A stretch of 64,000 nucleotides of DNA from a virus. The stretch spans positions 39,400 through 103,399 of IMG/VR virus record IMGVR_UViG_3300032770_000011; one strand, written 5' to 3'. The first letter of the stretch is position 1. Every line of letters begins with the position of its first letter. The notes below the pieces were generated by a model. The model was given only the letters and a program-made list of their open reading frames with translations. It was not told the origin of the DNA and searched no databases. Positions 6,704 to 29,838 of this stretch are shown in pieces. Both the position numbers and the translations under genes were made by a program.

Positions 6704-7270
6704 TTACGAAGGAAATACTATTTGCTCGTCCAAACCATTAAAGAATTGGAAGCAAGGGTAACTCAACTTCTTCACTTGCTCAATAGGAATAATTGGCGGG
6801 TCATTTCGCAACCGCTCTCCTGGCGCGGTTTTAGTTGCTTCAACCGTTACACCTTCACGATGCTGGAACTCGGTAAAACCTTTCCAATGCTCAACTCTTT
6901 CAGCAAGTGCAACTTTGTCTTGTTCAATCCGCCAAGCAACTTCATCCAGACCAGGAGTCTTCAACTTGAAGAGAACGTCGCCTTTCAGATTGACGACCTT
7001 AGTCGTTTCTCCCCACTGCACTGGGGCTTGACTCTTCAGCCACGCATCAAGGTAGCGGTCTTCTCCCTTGACGAGAGACATTGAACCATCGGCTTCGAGG
7101 AAAGGTACCCAAGCCCGTTTCCGAACTTGAGTAACCATCTTAATGCCCTTCAAAGGCATCAAATTGCTTGCGTGAACAATGGCCGGGAGTGCTAGTAACC
7201 CTGCAAGGAAAGCGCGGCGGTGAAGCATGAACCCAACTCTTCGCTTAGGAGGTTTCCGGTCTGCCGCCAA
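6704..7270 (-). CDS. Hypothetical protein with twin-arginine-like N-terminus
   Basis: HRRAFLAGLLALPAIVHA; start probably 7228. Confidence 0.55.
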   Translation of the reverse strand: MAADRKPPKRRVGFMLHRRAFLAGLLALPAIVHASNLMPLKGIKMVTQVRKRAWVPFLEADGSMSLVKGEDRYLDAWLKSQAPVQWGETTKVVNLKGDVLFKLKTPGLDEVAWRIEQDKVALAERVEHWKGFTEFQHREGVTVEATKTAPGERLRNDPPIIPIEQVKKLSYPCFQFFNGLDEQIVFPS

Positions 7271-7342
7271 CTTTACGTCACCATAAAGTCACTCTCACCA
7301 CAGCGGATGAGAGGGTCAAAAGCCGGCAGACCGGATCTGAAG

Positions 7343-7891
7343 CTATTCCTCGATTGCGGTTGGTACCATACGTCCAACTTCTTTTGTAATCCTCGGACGT
7401 ACATCTGGGTGTTCGCGGGTAAGTTCGCCTTTTGGCGTCATACCAAGACGTTGTTCAGCTTCTCTGACCTGTTGTCTGGCAAGTTGCCGTTGTTCCTGTT
7501 GAGCCTCCAAGGTCAAGGATAAAGGCCGCTCCATGAGGATCATGCCACCTTTGATGATATGTGGCTGATTGTAGCCAGGCGGTACCCAATTCGGATGGCG
7601 TTTCGGATTCACTGGCTCCCAGCCTTGCTCACGCAGGCTTGCCAGATAGAAGGGATCCTCCTGGCCATGAACCGAGAACCGCTTCCACTCGTAGGAAGAC
7701 TCTGCCGGGATCTCGTCCTGGGGCAGATAGAATTGATCCTCATGCACTGTAGACTTGCGGCGGCGAGTACGGCGTGGTTCGACATGAACAGGGACACGCT
7801 GCTCCTCACGGACGGCAGCACCAGAAGCATGAACTGGAGCACGGTCGGCATTCAGACGGCGGCGGGGGGTTACCATTTGTTGTCCTCTCAC
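7343..7891 (-). CDS. Head-module hypothetical protein
   Basis: YEWKR..GWEPV..GGMILMERP; adjacent to scaffold. Confidence 0.7.
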   Translation of the reverse strand: MRGQQMVTPRRRLNADRAPVHASGAAVREEQRVPVHVEPRRTRRRKSTVHEDQFYLPQDEIPAESSYEWKRFSVHGQEDPFYLASLREQGWEPVNPKRHPNWVPPGYNQPHIIKGGMILMERPLSLTLEAQQEQRQLARQQVREAEQRLGMTPKGELTREHPDVRPRITKEVGRMVPTAIEE

Positions 7892-7903
7892 AGATTACGG
7901 AAA

Positions 7904-9019
7904 TCAAACGTACGTGCGGCCAATCTTACCTTCGGCCTGCAATTCCAGATAGGACCGAGCATATTTGCCGAATGCCCGCTTGCGCCAGGCGTCCACATCC
8001 TCACCTTGCTGCTGTGGCCAGGAGAGCAGCGCCGCTTCCTGTTGGTCCTTGTTCAGGCGTACATCACGGGACACGACCTTACCTCCGGCGTCGGGCGCTT
8101 CACGGGAAACTGGCGCAGAAGGTTGTGCCTGCTTCGGCTTTGGCTTTGGCGTAGGGTTATCAACAACATCCTCAACCTTCGGAGTAGGAACAGGAACAAC
8201 CGGCTGGCGATAGCCCGCCTTCTCCTCGATGGTCTGGAAGTACTCATCCGAACCTTCGACGAGACCCTTGGCGAGAGCTTCATAGTGACCAGCCATCATG
8301 GCAGCATGCTTTGCTGGATTGCCACCGACGACCGCAGGAGCACATTCGGGGTGCGTTCTGAGCCAGGACTCTGCCTTTGGCGAGAACTTGTTCTGGACGA
8401 GATAGTTCTCAAAGGGAGAGCGAGCGGTAGTGGGTTGCTCCTCAACGCGCCCTTCAGTCGTAGGCGCAGCTGCCTTGTTCGCTTCGAAGGTGACTTTCGC
8501 ATCCTCAAGGCGGTCTAGCGTGGCAGCCGCTTTCGCCATCTTCACCTGGATCTCGGAAACCTTCTTGAACTCCCCAGCTTCGAGAGCTCGCGCTTGCTCT
8601 TCCTGATAGGCAGCAATCTCGCGACTTGCGGAGTCGATACCCTGAGTAATGATAGCGAGTTGGCGCTCGGCAGCTTCCTCGCGAGCAGCAGCGGCGTCCT
8701 GCGCCCTTCTCTCGGCTAGAGAGAGGGCCTCTGTGGCGCGCTGGCGCTCCGCTACGGCTTGGGCTTCTGCCGCCTTTCTGGCATCCTCTGCGGCCTTTAC
8801 AGCGGCCTTCAGGGCTTCGGTCGGGTCGGTGACGACCTGCGTATCCGCTAGGGCCGGAGTAACGGGTTTCTTGGTGTCGGCAGCAGGAGTTTCCTTTGCC
8901 GCAACGCCACCTTCGGTCTCTGGCGTTTTCGGAGCTTCCTTCTCCAGAAGGTCGGGGGCATCAGAAACATCAATGGTGACGAGACTTTCGTCGGGTACTT
9001 CAACGGCGAGGTCGGCCAT
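7904..9019 (-). CDS. Putative capsid scaffolding protein
   Basis: Acidic Ala/Glu coiled coil; GGAGAAG before ATG 9019; between GroES and capsid genes. Confidence 0.65.
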   Translation of the reverse strand: MADLAVEVPDESLVTIDVSDAPDLLEKEAPKTPETEGGVAAKETPAADTKKPVTPALADTQVVTDPTEALKAAVKAAEDARKAAEAQAVAERQRATEALSLAERRAQDAAAAREEAAERQLAIITQGIDSASREIAAYQEEQARALEAGEFKKVSEIQVKMAKAAATLDRLEDAKVTFEANKAAAPTTEGRVEEQPTTARSPFENYLVQNKFSPKAESWLRTHPECAPAVVGGNPAKHAAMMAGHYEALAKGLVEGSDEYFQTIEEKAGYRQPVVPVPTPKVEDVVDNPTPKPKPKQAQPSAPVSREAPDAGGKVVSRDVRLNKDQQEAALLSWPQQQGEDVDAWRKRAFGKYARSYLELQAEGKIGRTYV

Positions 9020-24761: not shown

Positions 24762-25337
24762 TCAATGTCGCGTTCCTTTCCCATTGAGAGGAACTACACC
24801 TTCAGGTAATTTCATTCCGGGACTGATACCGAGCTCCGCAACATCCTTCCGGATTTCTTCCAGCAGCTGAGCAGCAGTCTTGTCCTCAATCTGACCCTTG
24901 TGTTCGTAATTGTAGACGTCGCGCCAGTTGTCCGGGCGGCGATTCTTCAGCCAGAAGATACAGGCAGTGACATCAGGCGCAAAGTGCTTGCGTACCGGAT
25001 AGCGAATAATCTCGCCGTCCTTCGTGACCTTCACTTCTTCGGTATCCACACTGTAACCGATTGCGCGGTGCGCTAGGGAACGTTCAACCCGGTCGTCCCA
25101 GGAGGATTTACCGTCCCGTAAGGCATCCCGGAAAGCCGGGAACTGATGCGACCAAGCTGCAATAGTCCAGGTAGAGACCCCGAAGAGGTTGGCGAGGTCA
25201 ACGTCGGTCGCGCCCAGAACACAATGCGCTTTCGCCATTCGGGCATATTCGGGGCGGTAAGTGCTAGGACGACCTACTGCACGCTTCGGCGGGGTAGCCT
25301 GAGCCTTCTTAGGCTGCTTGAGGCGATAGCGTTTCAT
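24762..25337 (-). CDS. terS: Terminase small subunit
   Basis: GRPSTYRPEY..LGATD.DLA..FGVS; PDVTACIFWLKNRRP. Confidence 0.8.
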   Translation of the reverse strand: MKRYRLKQPKKAQATPPKRAVGRPSTYRPEYARMAKAHCVLGATDVDLANLFGVSTWTIAAWSHQFPAFRDALRDGKSSWDDRVERSLAHRAIGYSVDTEEVKVTKDGEIIRYPVRKHFAPDVTACIFWLKNRRPDNWRDVYNYEHKGQIEDKTAAQLLEEIRKDVAELGISPGMKLPEGVVPLNGKGTRH

Positions 25338-25837
25338 ACGGCTTCCAGATATTCTTCCGGTACAAACACCGGAGTCTTGCGGCCGAGGAAATCCAGTAGA
25401 ACACTGACGCGGTGCGCTGCGTCCTGACTGTAGATACCCTTGTAGCCACTGAAAGATCCGGAATTGATACGGACGGTGTCTCCGGCCTTGAACTTCGATT
25501 CGATGCTTTCGGCAAGACGGATCATGCCATCCTCATCCTCACGCTGGCGCAATTTGATGATCTCTCGTTCGGGCATGATCGCCGGGGTCTGTCCCCACAT
25601 GATGATTGAAGTAATTCCGAAAGTACCTAACAGATAACGCCACTGTCCCGTTGTCTTCACGAACATGTAGGTAGGGAAAAGCCATTCTTCGCATAACTTT
25701 TTCTTGCCCTTCACCACCTTCGTGGAAACTGTCTTCGGTAGGTAAGGTTCGCCTCCCTGCCGGACGACATTTTCTGCCGCCCACTTTTCGCGCTGGGATT
25801 TCGTGCGCGCGACGACCCATACCCCTGCACTTTGCAT
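25334..25837 (-). CDS. NusG/RfaH-family antitermination factor
   Basis: WVVARTK..E; LFPTYMFV; KOW FKAGDTVRI.SGSF.G..G. Confidence 0.85.
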   Translation of the reverse strand: MQSAGVWVVARTKSQREKWAAENVVRQGGEPYLPKTVSTKVVKGKKKLCEEWLFPTYMFVKTTGQWRYLLGTFGITSIIMWGQTPAIMPEREIIKLRQREDEDGMIRLAESIESKFKAGDTVRINSGSFSGYKGIYSQDAAHRVSVLLDFLGRKTPVFVPEEYLEAV

Positions 25838-25910: not shown

Positions 25911-27521
25911 TCAGCGGCGGGCGAAGTCCGCCATTACAGCCGGAGCAGCAGAGTCAAACCCTACCACGTCCAGCATTCCGGCATCATTCGGGTCGGCAAT
26001 CGTGAAGCCGGTCGAGGTCATTCCTACCACAACCAGTTTTGCCGGGATACCAGACTTCTGCCGATACTTCTGCAACGCAACCGGGGGGTGCATACTTCCT
26101 GCCCACGTTTCATTGTCGGTGAACACTTGGAAGACGTCAACCTCCAAGCGTTGCTCCATTGCGTAGATCATCGGCAAAGCGCAATCCGTTCCGCCAAAGT
26201 TGACGTTACGAGTACGCTGCAGAACGTCCTCCAAGGACATCTTGGCGCTGAGCCGCAAGTCCTTGAACCTGTCGGCAAAGGCCATGACATGCCAGTCCTG
26301 CTCGGTACGCATGACCGTCATAGCCATAGCCGCCGCTCCCGCACAGACTTCGAGCGGCGACCCCATCAACGGAGACGACATAGACCCGGAAACGTCCAGC
26401 CCAATCAGCGTCCGCTTGCCCGAAGGTTCAATCGTCTTGAAGGACAGGTAGAAAGCTTCCTCCAAGGCGTCCGCAACCTTCGGAATAGGCTTCCACGAGA
26501 GCGGCTCACTCTCGTCGTCAGTTCGCCTACGCCGCTGACCGGCAACGCTAGCTCCGGAATTGTAAGCCGCCTGCGCTACCAGCACATTAAACGGATGGAT
26601 ACGAGCCTTCTGAAGCTCATCCTGGTCCGCCAAACGCTCCACTACGGTTCGCACTGAAGGGCCGAGCGGCTTCAACGTACCGTAAGCCGTCATTGCGCCG
26701 AGGTTGCGGATAAGCGCCGTCAGACCCATATCCGGGAGCATGACTTCCCATACAGCCGGGTCCTTCTTGACCCAGGTCGGGATGGCTTCCCAAGGCAACT
26801 TGTACTCCCGAATCAAGTCGAGAAGCCGAGGAGACGACTTCTCCATCTTCATTGCTTCCTCGTGAGCAGCAATGATTTCCGGCAGCAGCTTCTCGTCGCC
26901 TTCCTTCAGCTTGCCCTTCAGCCAACGGTAAACCGGCTTGTTGGCGTCAGCGTAAGGCCGCGCCGTTTCCAGAAGCCGCTTATGGGTATAGTTACCCCGC
27001 GAGCGGTACTTCACACCCTGAAAGGCCACCGAAGCCGGGCTACGGTGATCGTACCAACGGGCCACTGCCCGCTTCAAGGCACGACCCCAGCCTCGCCCTA
27101 GCTTGCGGCAATCATCCACAAACTGGAACAAATGGGTTGACGTACGGCAAACACCCGAGAGGCTATTGAGCGCCAGCTGACGTACCTTGGGGTCCTTGTG
27201 CACAGCGCCAAGCGCCAGCGCAAAGATTGCGGCATCATTCTTCGGAGCGCGACCTTCGTGAGAGACCTCCACGATGGTCTGTACCGTCCGTGCCGGATCA
27301 GCCGCATAGCACCGGATAACGCAGGCAGCGTTCTCCTTCGTCAGTACCTTTGCCGACTGGTAATACGTATTGGAATCGCTTCCCAGGATCAGGAAGCGGT
27401 GCAATCGTGCAAAGTCATCGAGGGTGAAGACGAATCCGCCAGCGTTGTTCTTCACCTGACGAGGGTTCAGTGGCTCCGTCTGCGGAACCGGCTCAGACAT
27501 CAACTCAGCATAGCGCGACAT
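25911..27521 (-). CDS. rsr: Ro60/Rsr ortholog (TROVE + vWA)
   Basis: QVKNNAGGFVF..RFLILGS; RTSTHLF.F; GWGRALKRAV..WY; ALIRNLG; RIHP; MIDAS DVSGSM; GGTDC; TDNETW; VGFD. Confidence 0.95.
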   Translation of the reverse strand: MSRYAELMSEPVPQTEPLNPRQVKNNAGGFVFTLDDFARLHRFLILGSDSNTYYQSAKVLTKENAACVIRCYAADPARTVQTIVEVSHEGRAPKNDAAIFALALGAVHKDPKVRQLALNSLSGVCRTSTHLFQFVDDCRKLGRGWGRALKRAVARWYDHRSPASVAFQGVKYRSRGNYTHKRLLETARPYADANKPVYRWLKGKLKEGDEKLLPEIIAAHEEAMKMEKSSPRLLDLIREYKLPWEAIPTWVKKDPAVWEVMLPDMGLTALIRNLGAMTAYGTLKPLGPSVRTVVERLADQDELQKARIHPFNVLVAQAAYNSGASVAGQRRRRTDDESEPLSWKPIPKVADALEEAFYLSFKTIEPSGKRTLIGLDVSGSMSSPLMGSPLEVCAGAAAMAMTVMRTEQDWHVMAFADRFKDLRLSAKMSLEDVLQRTRNVNFGGTDCALPMIYAMEQRLEVDVFQVFTDNETWAGSMHPPVALQKYRQKSGIPAKLVVVGMTSTGFTIADPNDAGMLDVVGFDSAAPAVMADFARR

Positions 27522-27573: not shown

Positions 27574-27709
27574 GCAGCACGAGCGCAGTTGTGAGTATCG
27601 GGCTTAGGCGCTCTACCGCTGAGCTACCGGCCCGTAAGTGGACCAGGTTGGAGTCGAACCAACGACCTCCTCCTCCATGGGATAACCGAAACTCTGGGGC
27701 TCGTGCTAC
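27574..27709 (-). ncRNA. yrlA: Y RNA 1, YrlA type (T arm, acceptor-like stem, D arm)
   Basis: Closing stem GTAGCACGAGC/GCTCGTGCTGC; GTTGGTTCGACTCCAAC precedes TAGCTCAGCGGTAGAGC; directly upstream of rsr. Confidence 0.9.
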
Positions 27710-27726
27710 TTTCCTCTTTTCTCGAA

Positions 27727-27792
27727 GGGCGAACACAGTTGTGTAGATCGGCATTTCATCATGGCTGATAACCGAACTACTGGGGCTCGCCC
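27727..27792 (-). ncRNA. Y RNA 2, minimal (closing stem only)
   Basis: GGGCGAGCCCCAGTAGTTCGGTTATC...CCGATCTACACAACTGTGTTCGCCC; same stem as Y RNA 1. Confidence 0.8.
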
Positions 27793-27813
27793 CAAAAACT
27801 CCTCTAACTAGGC

Positions 27814-27887
27814 TGAGCGGGCTCAGGGACGTGCATAGGGGTTGGTCAGAGTTCAAGTCTGATAACCTAAGCACAGGGGTCCGCTCA
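27814..27887 (-). ncRNA. Y RNA 3, minimal and divergent
   Basis: TGAGCGGACCCCTGTGCTTAGGTTATC...CCTATGCAC..GCCCGCTCA. Confidence 0.7.
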
Positions 27888-27896
27888 ACACTAACA

Positions 27897-28734: not shown

Positions 28735-28808
28735 TGGCACCCACTCAGGGAATCGAACCCCGGTTCGCTGGTTCAGAGCCAGCCGTCCTGCCATTGAACG
28801 AAGTGGGT
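28735..28808 (-). tRNA. tRNA-Gln(CUG)
   Basis: Loop CTCTGAA. Confidence 0.9.
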
Positions 28809-28812
28809 AAAA

Positions 28813-28948
28813 GGACGAACGCAATAATGGATATCGGGGTTGAGGTTGGATTCGAACCAACGACCTTCTGGGGTATCCCAAACGCTCTACCACTGAGCTA
28901 CTCTCGCTGGGTTGTGGTGCGAGATAACCGAAATCCTGGGGCTCGTCC
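28813..28948 (-). ncRNA. Y RNA 4, tRNA arms in normal order (D, anticodon-like hairpin, T)
   Basis: GGACGAGCCCCAGGATTTCGGTTATC...CCGATATCC..TGCGTTCGTCC enclosing TAGCTCAGTGGTAGAGC then GTTGGTTCGAATCCAAC. Confidence 0.8.
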
Positions 28949-28952
28949 AAAT

Positions 28953-29028
28953 TGGTCAGGGTGCGGTGTTCTGCCCACCGTCCTCCGCGTTCCAAGCGCG
29001 GGGCTCTTCTAGCACGAGCTTCACCCTG
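28953..29028 (-). tRNA. tRNA-Pro(UGG)
   Basis: Loop CTTGGAA; T-loop GGCAGAA. Confidence 0.8.
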
Positions 29029-29198: not shown

Positions 29199-29275
29199 TG
29201 GCTCCGGAGGTGGGTTTCGATCCCACATCGACATGCGTTAACAGCGCACCGTCCTTACCATTTGACTACTCCGGA
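29199..29275 (-). tRNA. tRNA-Asn(GUU)
   Basis: Loop CTGTTAA. Confidence 0.85.
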
Positions 29276-29838
29276 ATAAACTTTTGTCGAGACGCACGCT
29301 TGGCAGCTTCTACTCTAAGTGCTGCTAATCTTATTTTTTCTTTGTGTGCATTAGATAGATTTTTACCCTTGTTCCAAGATGGCTTTCCATATTGAGGATT
29401 ATTGCCTCCTAAACTAGCAGCCCGACGCGCAGCTAAAACTTTGCAACGATGTTCTTCATCAGTAAACCGTCTAAGATTGGCTGCCTTACCCCCCTTGCTA
29501 CGTGCACGCCTCATCTTAGCTTTAGGTAAAGAATTCAAGTCTAAGTTAAGTTTGTTTGTATTTATGTAACCAAAGCCGCCCTTGCCACCAGGGCAGAGAT
29601 TGTAACTCAGATCAGAATCACAAACCACTAACACCTTTTCGGCTAAGGTCATCTTCCATTCAACTTCGTAATGCCCTATAATCTCTGTTACAAAGTTTTC
29701 CAGGCCGTATTTAGTAATAGCCCTCAACAACAATTTGCCGGATCCCAAGTAACCATCGTTGATATTTTTAGTTTGGTGTTTTCCAACGTAGACCTTTCCG
29801 GTAACTAAACAGGTTGTTTTGTAAACAAGATAGTGCAT
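29266..29838 (-). CDS. Seg-like GIY-YIG homing endonuclease with NUMOD3-like tail
   Basis: LVYKTT..KVYVGKH..YLGSG; PSWNKGK.LS..HKEKI. Confidence 0.85.
   Translation of the reverse strand: MHYLVYKTTCLVTGKVYVGKHQTKNINDGYLGSGKLLLRAITKYGLENFVTEIIGHYEVEWKMTLAEKVLVVCDSDLSYNLCPGGKGGFGYINTNKLNLDLNSLPKAKMRRARSKGGKAANLRRFTDEEHRCKVLAARRAASLGGNNPQYGKPSWNKGKNLSNAHKEKIRLAALRVEAAKRASRQKFIPE

What the first reader, a model, noticed from the sequence alone, without database searches (positions are those of the whole stretch)
28813..28948. Y RNA with tRNA arms in normal order, a permutation of the neighbouring YrlA
Seen: Y RNA 4 has nearly the same arms as Y RNA 1 (T: AGGTCGTTGGTTCGA(A/C)TCCAACCT; D: GTAGCTCAG(T/C)GGTAGAGCG) but in order D, hairpin TTTGGG-ATAC-CCCAGA, T. 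The closing stem thus replaces the acceptor arm and the anticodon loop is cut to 4 nt. Known: YrlA is permuted (T, acceptor-like stem, D). It sits inside the tRNA array and tRNA scanners would likely call it a pseudo-tRNA. Inference: a distinct Y RNA topology, possibly an evolutionary intermediate or a decoy.
Basis: partly seen in the sequence, partly recalled or inferred. Interest (0 to 1): 0.75.

Follow-up and report, generated by a model that had tools for sequence, protein, structure and literature searches.

The report
Phage Y RNA with rewired tRNA body
A small RNA gene hidden among a phage's tRNA genes joins the handle that docks the Ro60 protein to a complete tRNA look-alike wired in a layout I could not find described, which adds a third way in which these RNAs copy tRNA.

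Summary
Confirmed. Window 28813-28948 (minus strand) is a 136-nt RNA gene set between two tRNA genes with 4-nt spacers, 1.3 kb upstream of a phage Ro60/Rsr gene. Its two ends form the same closing stem as the three Y RNAs next to rsr. Its middle is a full tRNA body in the order D arm, capped 16-nt hairpin, T arm.

A conserved hairpin just 5' of the D arm supplies it. The hairpin's 5' strand is followed by NCCA, like a tRNA 3' end moved upstream. With the first nucleotides after the T stem it makes a 7-bp acceptor helix, and the Rsr handle branches from that helix.

I found nine more members in viral and metagenome contigs. Nine of the ten lie beside or among tRNA genes, and six have rsr in the DNA fetched. 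All four helices show compensatory changes. Rfam scores them as tRNA, never as YrlA. The papers I could search do not describe this layout, and two reviews were not held.

Best reading: a new layout of tRNA-mimicking Y RNA, probably opened by RNase P into a two-piece RNA with a free CCA end. There are no expression or binding data. Earlier scan notes cover other Y RNA layouts, not this one.

The parts
28813..28948 (-). Whole Y RNA 4 (136 nt)
   Evidence: Sequence; fold with closing stem, z -3.2; ten-member family
28923..28948 (-). 5' strand of the closing (presumed Rsr-binding) stem, including the handle GAGCCCCAG..UUCGGUUAUC shared with Y RNAs 1-3
28919..28924 (-). Upstream strand UCUCGC, taking the place of tRNA acceptor 3' strand positions 67-72
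   Evidence: Pairs with 28902-28907; covaries in the family
28915..28918 (-). ACCA, in the register of discriminator plus CCA, opening the 11-nt acceptor loop
   Evidence: NCCA here in 6 of 10 members, against 1 distinct case among about 45 YrlA-type acceptor loops
28901..28907 (-). GCGAGAG = tRNA positions 1-7 (acceptor 5' strand); 1-6 pair with the upstream strand, G7 pairs with C at 28844
28884..28898 (-). D arm (4 bp, loop AGUGGUA), preceded by U8 A9
28867..28882 (-). Anticodon-arm substitute: 16 nt, 6 bp plus tetraloop AUAC (5 bp plus 6-nt loop in tRNA numbering); no anticodon
   Evidence: (all five pairs covary)
28845..28866 (-). Variable loop AGGUC and T arm (5 bp, loop UUCGAAU)
28813..28844 (-). 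C66-equivalent, linker, and 3' strand of the closing stem
25911..27521 (-). rsr: Ro60 ortholog (TROVE plus Ro60 vWA domains), presumed protein partner
   Evidence: PF05731 3e-34, PF25045 2.6e-68
27575..27712 (-). Y RNA 1, YrlA-type (T, acceptor hairpin, D), with D and T arms nearly identical to Y RNA 4
28953..29028 (-). Upstream tRNA-Pro(UGG) with odd T loop and encoded CCA; 4-nt spacer to Y RNA 4
   Evidence: Read; not called by ARAGORN or by Rfam at its cut-off
28735..28808 (-). Downstream tRNA-Gln(CUG); RNase P cleavage at its 5' end would set the 3' end of Y RNA 4
   Evidence: the processing step is inferred

Best explanation
Y RNA 4 is a phage-encoded Y RNA, a partner RNA of the phage's Ro60/Rsr protein, and belongs to a recurring, apparently undescribed layout. 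It is probably transcribed with the tRNA array. The tRNA-processing enzymes that trim its two tRNA neighbours would then cut it out (inferred). Its 5' and 3' ends pair into the handle that the three Y RNAs beside rsr also carry, which is the presumed Rsr-binding site (inferred from homology and position). The rest is a complete tRNA body with three changes. (1) The anticodon loop is replaced by a capped 16-nt hairpin, so it cannot decode. (2) The acceptor stem is a 7-bp composite closed by a long loop: its outer 5-6 pairs use a strand placed upstream of the D arm and followed by NCCA, and its inner 1-2 (possibly up to 4) pairs use the nucleotides after the T stem. (3) The Rsr handle therefore branches from the acceptor/T-arm helix, not from the anticodon stem as in YrlA. 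Likely working: like other Y RNAs it tethers or gates Rsr, and it shows the acceptor/T-arm/elbow face of a tRNA to a tRNA-recognising factor. Because it has a 7-bp acceptor helix and an encoded NCCA, I predict that RNase P opens the acceptor loop, as shown for M. smegmatis YrlA. That would leave a two-piece RNA with a free CCA 3' end close to the Rsr ring. Shown here: the anatomy, the family, the covariation and the linkage to rsr and to tRNA genes. Inferred: Rsr binding, processing and function.
For: Anatomy and handle. rsr identity and position. Family of ten distinct sequences with the same parts. rsr lies in the fetched DNA for six of ten: the window, L210, L078, L292, L073 (weak) and L025 (divergent vWA_Ro60 protein). 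Nine of the ten lie next to or among tRNA genes called by ARAGORN; L025 has none beside it. Relatives carry the published CGAA-type handle motif (L025, L078, L284, L287, L292). Covariation on the 11-row alignment, ten members plus the doubtful L067: 97.1% of cells paired against 76.3% in shuffles; 14 of 19 pairs change on both sides; 0 of 500 shuffles reach this; structures slid by 1-3 columns pair in at most 52% of cells. All five scored pairs of the upstream hairpin and all five of the capped hairpin have compensatory changes. The composite acceptor is 7 bp in 9 of 10 and NCCA is in exact register in 6 of 10. About 45 YrlA-type elements in the same kind of loci have short acceptor loops, and only one distinct case has NCCA. 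The unaided minimum-energy fold recovers the whole architecture in 5 of 10. All nucleotides of the standard tRNA tertiary pairs are present: U8-A14, G15-C48, G18/G19, U54-A58, C56, G26, G45/G46 (read; established tRNA knowledge). Precedent for RNase P cleavage and a CCA end on a 7-bp YrlA acceptor stem: PMC4201824 and 10.1101/312249.
Against: No transcript, end-mapping, modification or binding data exist; only DNA runs hold this sequence. The window's handle has CCCCAG where the published motif has CGAA, so Rsr binding here rests on analogy. Positions 5-7 can pair with either the upstream or the downstream strand in most members, so the exact branch point is undetermined. The covariation alignment was fitted to my model and has only 11 rows. 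My model does not separate members from tRNAs by score alone: L078 scores 55 bits, and some true tRNAs and bacterial tRNA-like elements score 54-63 bits, so membership was decided by inspection. The layout is rare: one new member among 79 viral rsr loci and none in six cultured-phage rsr loci. Four members sit on fragments without rsr. NCCA could be a relic of a tandem-tRNA origin rather than a selected feature.
Confidence: 0.75

Rival explanations
1. One reading: a Y RNA whose closing stem directly continues, and so replaces, the acceptor stem, with D, short hairpin and T in plain tRNA order, as modelled for D. radiodurans Yrn1. On this view the hairpin 5' of the D arm is an unimportant extra.
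For: The Rfam tRNA model aligns 28837-28907 end to end. The nucleotides after the T stem pair contiguously with positions 7, 6 and 5 (3-4 pairs) in most members. Yrn1 was published with this orientation.
Against: Positions 1-4 do not pair with the downstream strand in most members: the window has 3 of 7 acceptor pairs mismatched, and others have 2-4 pairs of 7. They pair with the upstream strand in all ten, with compensatory changes. NCCA in tRNA register after that strand is unexplained by this model. The downstream nucleotides needed for a full acceptor stem are used by the closing stem.
Confidence: 0.1
2. A tRNA-derived processing or decoy element that works without Rsr. It could be a pseudo-tRNA kept in the array as an RNase P entry site, or a decoy that soaks up host factors acting on the tRNA acceptor/elbow region, such as tRNA-targeting defence toxins. 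The closing stem would serve only for stability.
For: It sits inside the tRNA array, not in the Y RNA cluster beside rsr. It has a full tRNA core but no anticodon. Many phage and bacterial contigs carry tRNA-like elements with shortened anticodon arms and no rsr nearby. Four members have no rsr in the DNA available.
Against: The closing stem carries the same handle as the rsr-adjacent Y RNAs in the window, and the published CGAA-type motif in relatives. Where enough DNA is held, rsr is within 0.1-4.4 kb on the same strand. The rsr-free tRNA-like elements keep a normal acceptor stem and lack the handle.
Confidence: 0.1
3. A decaying tRNA pseudogene, for instance the remnant of a tandem tRNA-Gly-like duplication, with no function of its own.
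For: The D arm, the G1-C2-G3 start and the T arm resemble a tRNA-Gly-type gene. An upstream acceptor 3' strand plus CCA, a spacer, then a 5' strand is what a junction of two tandem tRNA genes looks like; this dimeric-tRNA origin was proposed for YrlA in 10.1101/312249.
Against: Ten diverged members keep every helix through compensatory changes. They keep a 7-bp acceptor and a 15-16-nt capped hairpin, and a closing stem that no tRNA has. Their rsr genes are only 25-51% identical to the window's, so the layout is old and maintained.
Confidence: 0.04

Closest known systems
YrlA (Y RNA-like A; Rfam RF02553; Chen et al. 2014, PMC4201824; structure in Wang et al. 2018, bioRxiv 10.1101/312249)
   Same: Encoded near rsr on the same strand. 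The 5' and 3' ends form the Ro60-binding stem. The effector module is a tRNA mimic with canonical D and T arms and a loop-closed acceptor stem. In the window the D and T arms of Y RNA 4 and of the YrlA-type Y RNA 1 are nearly identical.
   Different: The order is acceptor hairpin, D, capped anticodon-like hairpin, T, instead of (V), T, acceptor hairpin, D. The Rsr stem joins the acceptor/T helix, not the anticodon stem. An anticodon-arm substitute is present. The acceptor loop is long (7-13 nt in nine of ten) and starts with NCCA in most members. Rfam YrlA gives no hit at E <= 10.
D. radiodurans Yrn1 (Chen et al. 2000, 2013, 2014)
   Same: As modelled in PMC4201824, the D-like, anticodon-like and T elements run in tRNA order from the 5' end, and the 'anticodon arm' has a 5-bp stem and a 6-nt loop, the same size as here.
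   Different: Yrn1 has no clear D arm, no dihydrouridine was found, and no acceptor hairpin with NCCA is described; here the whole tRNA core is canonical. I could not compare sequences because no Yrn1 sequence was at hand.
M. smegmatis YrlA processing (Chen et al. 2014)
   Same: It has a 7-bp loop-closed acceptor stem that RNase P cleaves, after which the upstream fragment ends in CCA. This is the precedent for my two-piece prediction.
   Different: There CCA is added after nibbling; here NCCA is encoded. The topology of the rest differs as for YrlA. Cleavage is untested here.
tRNA-shaped Y RNAs with the Rsr helix in the anticodon position
   Same: A tRNA body plus the Rsr handle, encoded next to rsr.
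   Different: Those have free tRNA-like ends at a normal acceptor stem, and the handle is a closed hairpin replacing the anticodon loop. In Y RNA 4 the ends are in the handle and the acceptor and anticodon stems are both capped.
Circularly permuted tRNA and two-piece tmRNA genes (Soma et al. 2007; alphaproteobacterial ssrA; from my own knowledge)
   Same: The acceptor 3' strand with CCA is encoded upstream of the acceptor 5' strand, and the intervening loop is removed by tRNA-processing enzymes.
   Different: Those mature into working tRNA or tmRNA. Here there is no anticodon or mRNA-like part, and an Rsr handle is attached.

Membership tests
Bacterial/phage Y RNA (Ro60/Rsr partner RNAs) | Encoded close to rsr on the same strand | tested here: met
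   rsr lies at 25911-27521 (-) and Y RNA 4 is 1.3 kb upstream on the same strand. rsr is also present beside 5 of the 9 relatives.
Bacterial/phage Y RNA (Ro60/Rsr partner RNAs) | Long stem formed by the 5' and 3' ends that carries the conserved Ro60-binding motif (GNCGAAN0-1G in YrlA-type RNAs) | tested here: inconclusive
   The stem is present in all ten. A CGAA-type motif is present in L025, L078, L284, L287 and L292. The window has the variant GAGCCCCAGG, shared with its own Y RNAs 1-2.
Bacterial/phage Y RNA (Ro60/Rsr partner RNAs) | Bound and stabilised by Ro60/Rsr | not testable with these tools
   Needs co-immunoprecipitation or a gel-shift assay.
YrlA (Rfam RF02553) | Score at or above the Rfam cut-off (69 bits) | tested here: not met
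   No YrlA hit on 28813-28948 even at E <= 10, and none on the nine relatives at the cut-off.
YrlA (Rfam RF02553) | Module order T arm, acceptor-like hairpin, D arm, with the Rsr stem continuing the anticodon stem | tested here: not met
   The order here is acceptor hairpin, D, capped hairpin, T.
YrlA (Rfam RF02553) | tRNA-like D and T arms with the nucleotides of the tRNA tertiary pairs, and a loop-closed acceptor stem | tested here: met
   Read; closed acceptor hairpin with covariation.
tRNA (Rfam RF00005) | Score at or above the cut-off (29 bits) | tested here: met
   41.8 bits; relatives score 38-52 bits.
tRNA (Rfam RF00005) | 7-nt anticodon loop with an anticodon | tested here: not met
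   A 16-nt arm of 6 bp plus a tetraloop; the arm is 15-16 nt in all members.
tRNA (Rfam RF00005) | Acceptor stem made by the 5' end and the 3' end, with a free NCCA 3' end | tested here: not met
   3 of 7 pairs with the downstream strand are mismatched. The partner strand and NCCA lie upstream, joined by a loop.
D. radiodurans Yrn1-type Y RNA | D-like, anticodon-like (5 bp, 6-nt loop) and T elements in tRNA order between the strands of the Rsr stem | tested here: met
   Compared with the description in PMC4201824; this is a match of architecture only.
D. radiodurans Yrn1-type Y RNA | Sequence or model homology to Yrn1 | not tested

The most novel reading that the evidence does not exclude
RNase P matures this class of phage Y RNA into a two-piece RNA whose tRNA-like acceptor end carries a genuine free NCCA 3' terminus right beside the Rsr ring. 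That end would be the working part. It could be read by CCA-adding or repair enzymes or by an aminoacyl-tRNA synthetase, or it could thread into the Rsr cavity as a built-in plug. Through it the phage would couple Ro60-based RNA surveillance to the state of tRNA 3' ends, or divert host factors or defences that attack tRNA acceptor ends.
Probability: 0.2. Interest if true: 0.85.

Novelty: new variant of a known kind. Interest (0 to 1): 0.62.

Why it matters
Y RNAs are understood as two modules: a Ro60-binding stem and an effector module. For bacterial YrlA the effector module is a tRNA mimic whose partner is still unknown. This layout puts Ro60 on the opposite end of the tRNA shape, at the acceptor/T helix instead of the anticodon stem, while keeping the D/T elbow intact. 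That argues the elbow and acceptor face, not the attachment geometry, is what selection maintains.

The encoded NCCA and the exact 7-bp acceptor helix give a concrete, cheap test: RNase P cleavage and end mapping. Together with YrlA and the tRNA-shaped form with the handle in the anticodon position, there are now three wirings of the same two modules in rsr loci. This gives direct material for the proposed origin of these RNAs from tandem tRNA genes.

In practice, tRNA finders label these genes as odd or undetermined tRNAs, so phage tRNA counts are slightly inflated and the Y RNAs are missed.

Tried and rejected
- Near and distant DNA searches of GenBank phages with the region found only tRNA-sized matches and nothing over Y RNA 4.
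- A single-protein locus search with Rsr in viral contigs found nothing. An alignment-based search then gave 80 loci.
- The pattern 'handle motif followed by a D arm' found only L024 among 26 matches.
It gave many bacterial tRNA-like elements with 15-17-nt anticodon regions, but they keep normal acceptor stems and none had rsr in its 8-kb locus. I do not count them as members.
- L067 and L054 have a small hairpin before the D arm and a 16-nt capped arm but no recognisable handle or rsr; I left them as doubtful.
- My own pairing scanner with a strict 'no acceptor pairing' rule missed true members and picked up misparsed tRNAs, so I dropped it as a classifier.
- Six cultured-phage rsr loci (Gordonia Cashline and Forza, Agrobacterium Atu_ph07, Mycobacterium Rizal, Streptomyces Belfort and Yaboi) gave only true tRNAs.
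- Sequencing runs: no RNA holder listed. Five DNA holders were listed, one of which, a wetland metagenome, may be the source of this DNA.
- Two reviews (PMC10870794, PMC6047535) and the supplements of Chen et al. 2014 are not held, so the literature check is incomplete.
- Complex prediction and protein folding were not used, because they cannot take RNA.

Full report
WHERE IT IS. The window is part of a 103-kb uncultured virus record; the DNA is held by a wetland metagenome run. All the features below are on the minus strand. ORF 25911-27521 is a Ro60/Rsr ortholog with TROVE and Ro60-vWA domains. Its closest named relatives are Bradyrhizobium proteins at about 55% identity. Upstream of it lie three small RNAs at 27575-27890 that share one handle, then a long tRNA array. 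The finding, 28813-28948, sits inside that array.

- Read 5' to 3', the RNA has a 5' strand with the handle GAGCCCCAG..UUCGGUUAUC.
- It then has U8-A9, a canonical D arm, G26, a 16-nt hairpin (UUUGGG-AUAC-CCCAGA), AGGUC and a canonical T arm.
- It ends with a 3' strand that pairs with the 5' end.
- The handle motif occurs, with at most one mismatch, at four minus-strand sites between 27681 and 28932.
- The fold has a z-score of -3.2.
- The D and T arms match those of Y RNA 1, which Rfam aligns to YrlA at 37 bits, below its cut-off.
- Four-nucleotide spacers separate the RNA from an uncalled tRNA-Pro(UGG) with encoded CCA (28953-29028) and from tRNA-Gln(CUG) (28735-28808).
- The Rfam tRNA model scores the core at 41.8 bits, with three mismatched acceptor pairs and a short anticodon loop. 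No YrlA hit appears even at E <= 10.

The minimum-energy fold pairs 28924-28919 with 28907-28902. This is a 6-bp hairpin directly 5' of U8-A9, so it uses tRNA positions 1-6. Its 11-nt loop begins ACCA.

RELATIVES. A pattern built from the D arm, a gap one base shorter than in a tRNA, and the T arm found L024 and L025 in viral contigs. A looser pattern added L073 and L078. A covariance model of the core (R1) run over 79 viral rsr loci added L210. A metagenome scan added L284, L287, L291 and L292.

The ten distinct full-length members are:
- window:28813-28948:-
- L024:3788-3933:+
- L025:9261-9402:+
- L073:5376-5513:-
- L078:794-936:-
- L210:6239-6398:+
- L284:5773-5914:-
- L287:1595-1735:-
- L291:2824-2962:+
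- L292:35-172:+

All ten have a long closing stem. L025, L078, L284, L287 and L292 carry the published CGAA-type motif on its 5' strand, and L024 and L291 share the window's UUCGGUUAUC. Nine of the ten lie next to or among tRNA genes called by ARAGORN; L025 has none beside it. rsr is present in the fetched DNA for the window, L210 (51% identity), L078, L292 (35%) and L073 (weak). In L025 the partner is a divergent protein with a Ro60 vWA domain that ends 82 nt upstream of the RNA. In L025, L073 and L078 a YrlA-type RNA lies in the same cluster. The other four members are on short fragments or at contig ends.

STRUCTURE SUPPORT. The test used the model-fitted alignment of the ten members plus the doubtful L067.
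- 97.1% of pair cells are standard pairs, against 76.3% in column shuffles.
- 14 of 19 pairs change on both sides, and 0 of 500 shuffles reach this.
- Structures slid by 1-3 columns pair in at most 52% of cells.
- All five scored pairs of the upstream hairpin and all five of the capped hairpin show compensatory changes.

Caveats: the alignment leans towards the model, the rows are few, and shuffles ignore relatedness. The capped hairpin is 16 nt in nine members and 15 nt in one. Its 6-nt 'loop' can usually close one more pair around a tetraloop, often of GNRA type, so it is a cap and not an anticodon loop.

THE ACCEPTOR HELIX. The upstream strand pairs with positions 1-5, 1-6 or 1-7, and the one or two nucleotides after the T stem pair with the remaining positions 6-7. 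The total is 7 bp in nine of ten members; L024 has six pairs and a 1:72 mismatch. In six members the upstream strand is followed by NCCA in the register of positions 73-76. L284 matches if a 1:72 mismatch is allowed, and L025 has GCUA. By contrast, about 45 T-acceptor-D (YrlA-type) elements in the same loci have mostly 4-7-nt acceptor loops, and only one distinct case has NCCA.

The downstream nucleotides can also pair with positions 5-7, and sometimes 4. The point where the handle leaves the acceptor helix is therefore not fixed by sequence alone.

WHAT IT IS. It is a Y RNA whose effector module is a complete tRNA body. Every nucleotide of the standard tertiary pairs is present (read from the sequence; established tRNA knowledge). 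Both the anticodon stem and the acceptor stem are capped. The Rsr handle is grafted into the 3' strand of the acceptor stem.

This is neither YrlA nor a plain tRNA order. YrlA has the order T, acceptor hairpin, D, with the handle on the anticodon stem. Chen et al. 2014 modelled D. radiodurans Yrn1 in the D, anticodon-like, T orientation with a 5-bp/6-nt-loop arm. So the orientation has a precedent, but a canonical D arm and an NCCA-bearing acceptor hairpin do not. Wang et al. 2018 proposed that YrlA arose from a dimeric pre-tRNA. The present layout looks like a different window on the same kind of dimer: the acceptor 3' strand plus CCA of copy one, a spacer, then copy two.

HOW IT LIKELY WORKS (inferred).
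- It is co-transcribed with the tRNAs.
- RNase P cleavage at tRNA-Gln would release its 3' end, and 3' maturation of tRNA-Pro would release its 5' end.
- Rsr binds the handle.
- The tRNA body offers the acceptor/T/elbow face to a tRNA-recognising partner.
- M. smegmatis YrlA, the one YrlA with a 7-bp acceptor stem, is cut by RNase P and ends up with CCA. The 7-bp helix with encoded NCCA here therefore predicts cleavage at the loop/G1 junction. The result would be a two-piece RNA held together by the handle and the acceptor pairs.

NOVELTY CHECK. Rfam 15 labels all ten cores tRNA (38-52 bits, several without the acceptor columns) and none YrlA. Full-text searches, Chen 2014, Wang 2018, the phiLo Ro60 paper and a 2026 preprint on tRNA mimics do not describe this layout. 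Two reviews were not held. Earlier notes of this scan describe other layouts, not this one. I rate it a new variant of a known kind.

LIMITS. There are no RNA or binding data. Membership was decided by inspection because R1 scores overlap those of tRNAs. No member was found in six cultured-phage rsr loci.

Noticed in passing
L239:9292-9437, L240:6487-6639, L251:8812-8938, L221:6089-6225, L241:6688-6812, L254:6588-6743, L260:6755-6873, L228:8824-8966 (all + strand, beside rsr at about 7001-8600): A third wiring. These are complete tRNA-shaped RNAs with a normal 7-bp acceptor stem, D arm and T arm. Their anticodon arm is replaced by a long closed hairpin carrying the Y RNA handle (..GGGUUAUC.. 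or CGGUUACC) on its 3' strand. Three examples fold as cloverleaves. Earlier scan notes e1-2630374 and e1-4037503 reported the same layout elsewhere.
   Followed up: partly
window 28953-29028 (-): A tRNA-Pro(UGG) with the non-canonical T loop GGCAGAA and an encoded CCA is missed by ARAGORN and by Rfam at its cut-off. ARAGORN instead reports a tRNA-Gln on the + strand at 28937-29009, which overlaps it and Y RNA 4 and looks spurious.
   Followed up: partly
L085-L204 (bacterial genome contigs, e.g. Hyphomicrobium, Mesorhizobium, Bradyrhizobium, Sphingobacterium); also viral L052, L055, L057, L058, L063-L066, L082: There are many tRNA-like genes with a perfect acceptor stem, D arm and T arm but an anticodon region of only 13-17 nt, often 5 bp plus a 6-nt loop. 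None has rsr in its locus. They form recurring sequence groups, for example acceptor GAGGCUG in Hyphomicrobiaceae, and their function is unknown. Scan note e1-3288359 saw one such gene.
   Followed up: no
L067:7953-8025 and L054:9087-9135: Two elements have a small hairpin before the D arm, a 16-nt capped arm, a T arm and no acceptor 3' strand, like Y RNA 4. They have no recognisable handle motif or rsr. They lie between tRNA genes, one on a contig labelled as a giant-virus MAG.
   Followed up: no
window 29266-29838 (-): A 190-aa ORF with a weak GIY-YIG (SegE-like) homing-endonuclease match (E 6e-5, just under the Pfam cut-off) interrupts the tRNA array.
   Followed up: no
window 25334-25837 (-): A NusG-domain protein is encoded directly downstream of rsr.
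   Followed up: no
L073:5376-5900 (-) and L078:700-1290 (-): Each locus holds a row of four or more Y-type RNAs with different inserts upstream of rsr: YrlA-type, the present type and minimal ones. In L073 they are interleaved with tRNAs. L073's YrlA-type RNA is the only one of that type whose acceptor loop also starts with NCCA.
   Followed up: partly
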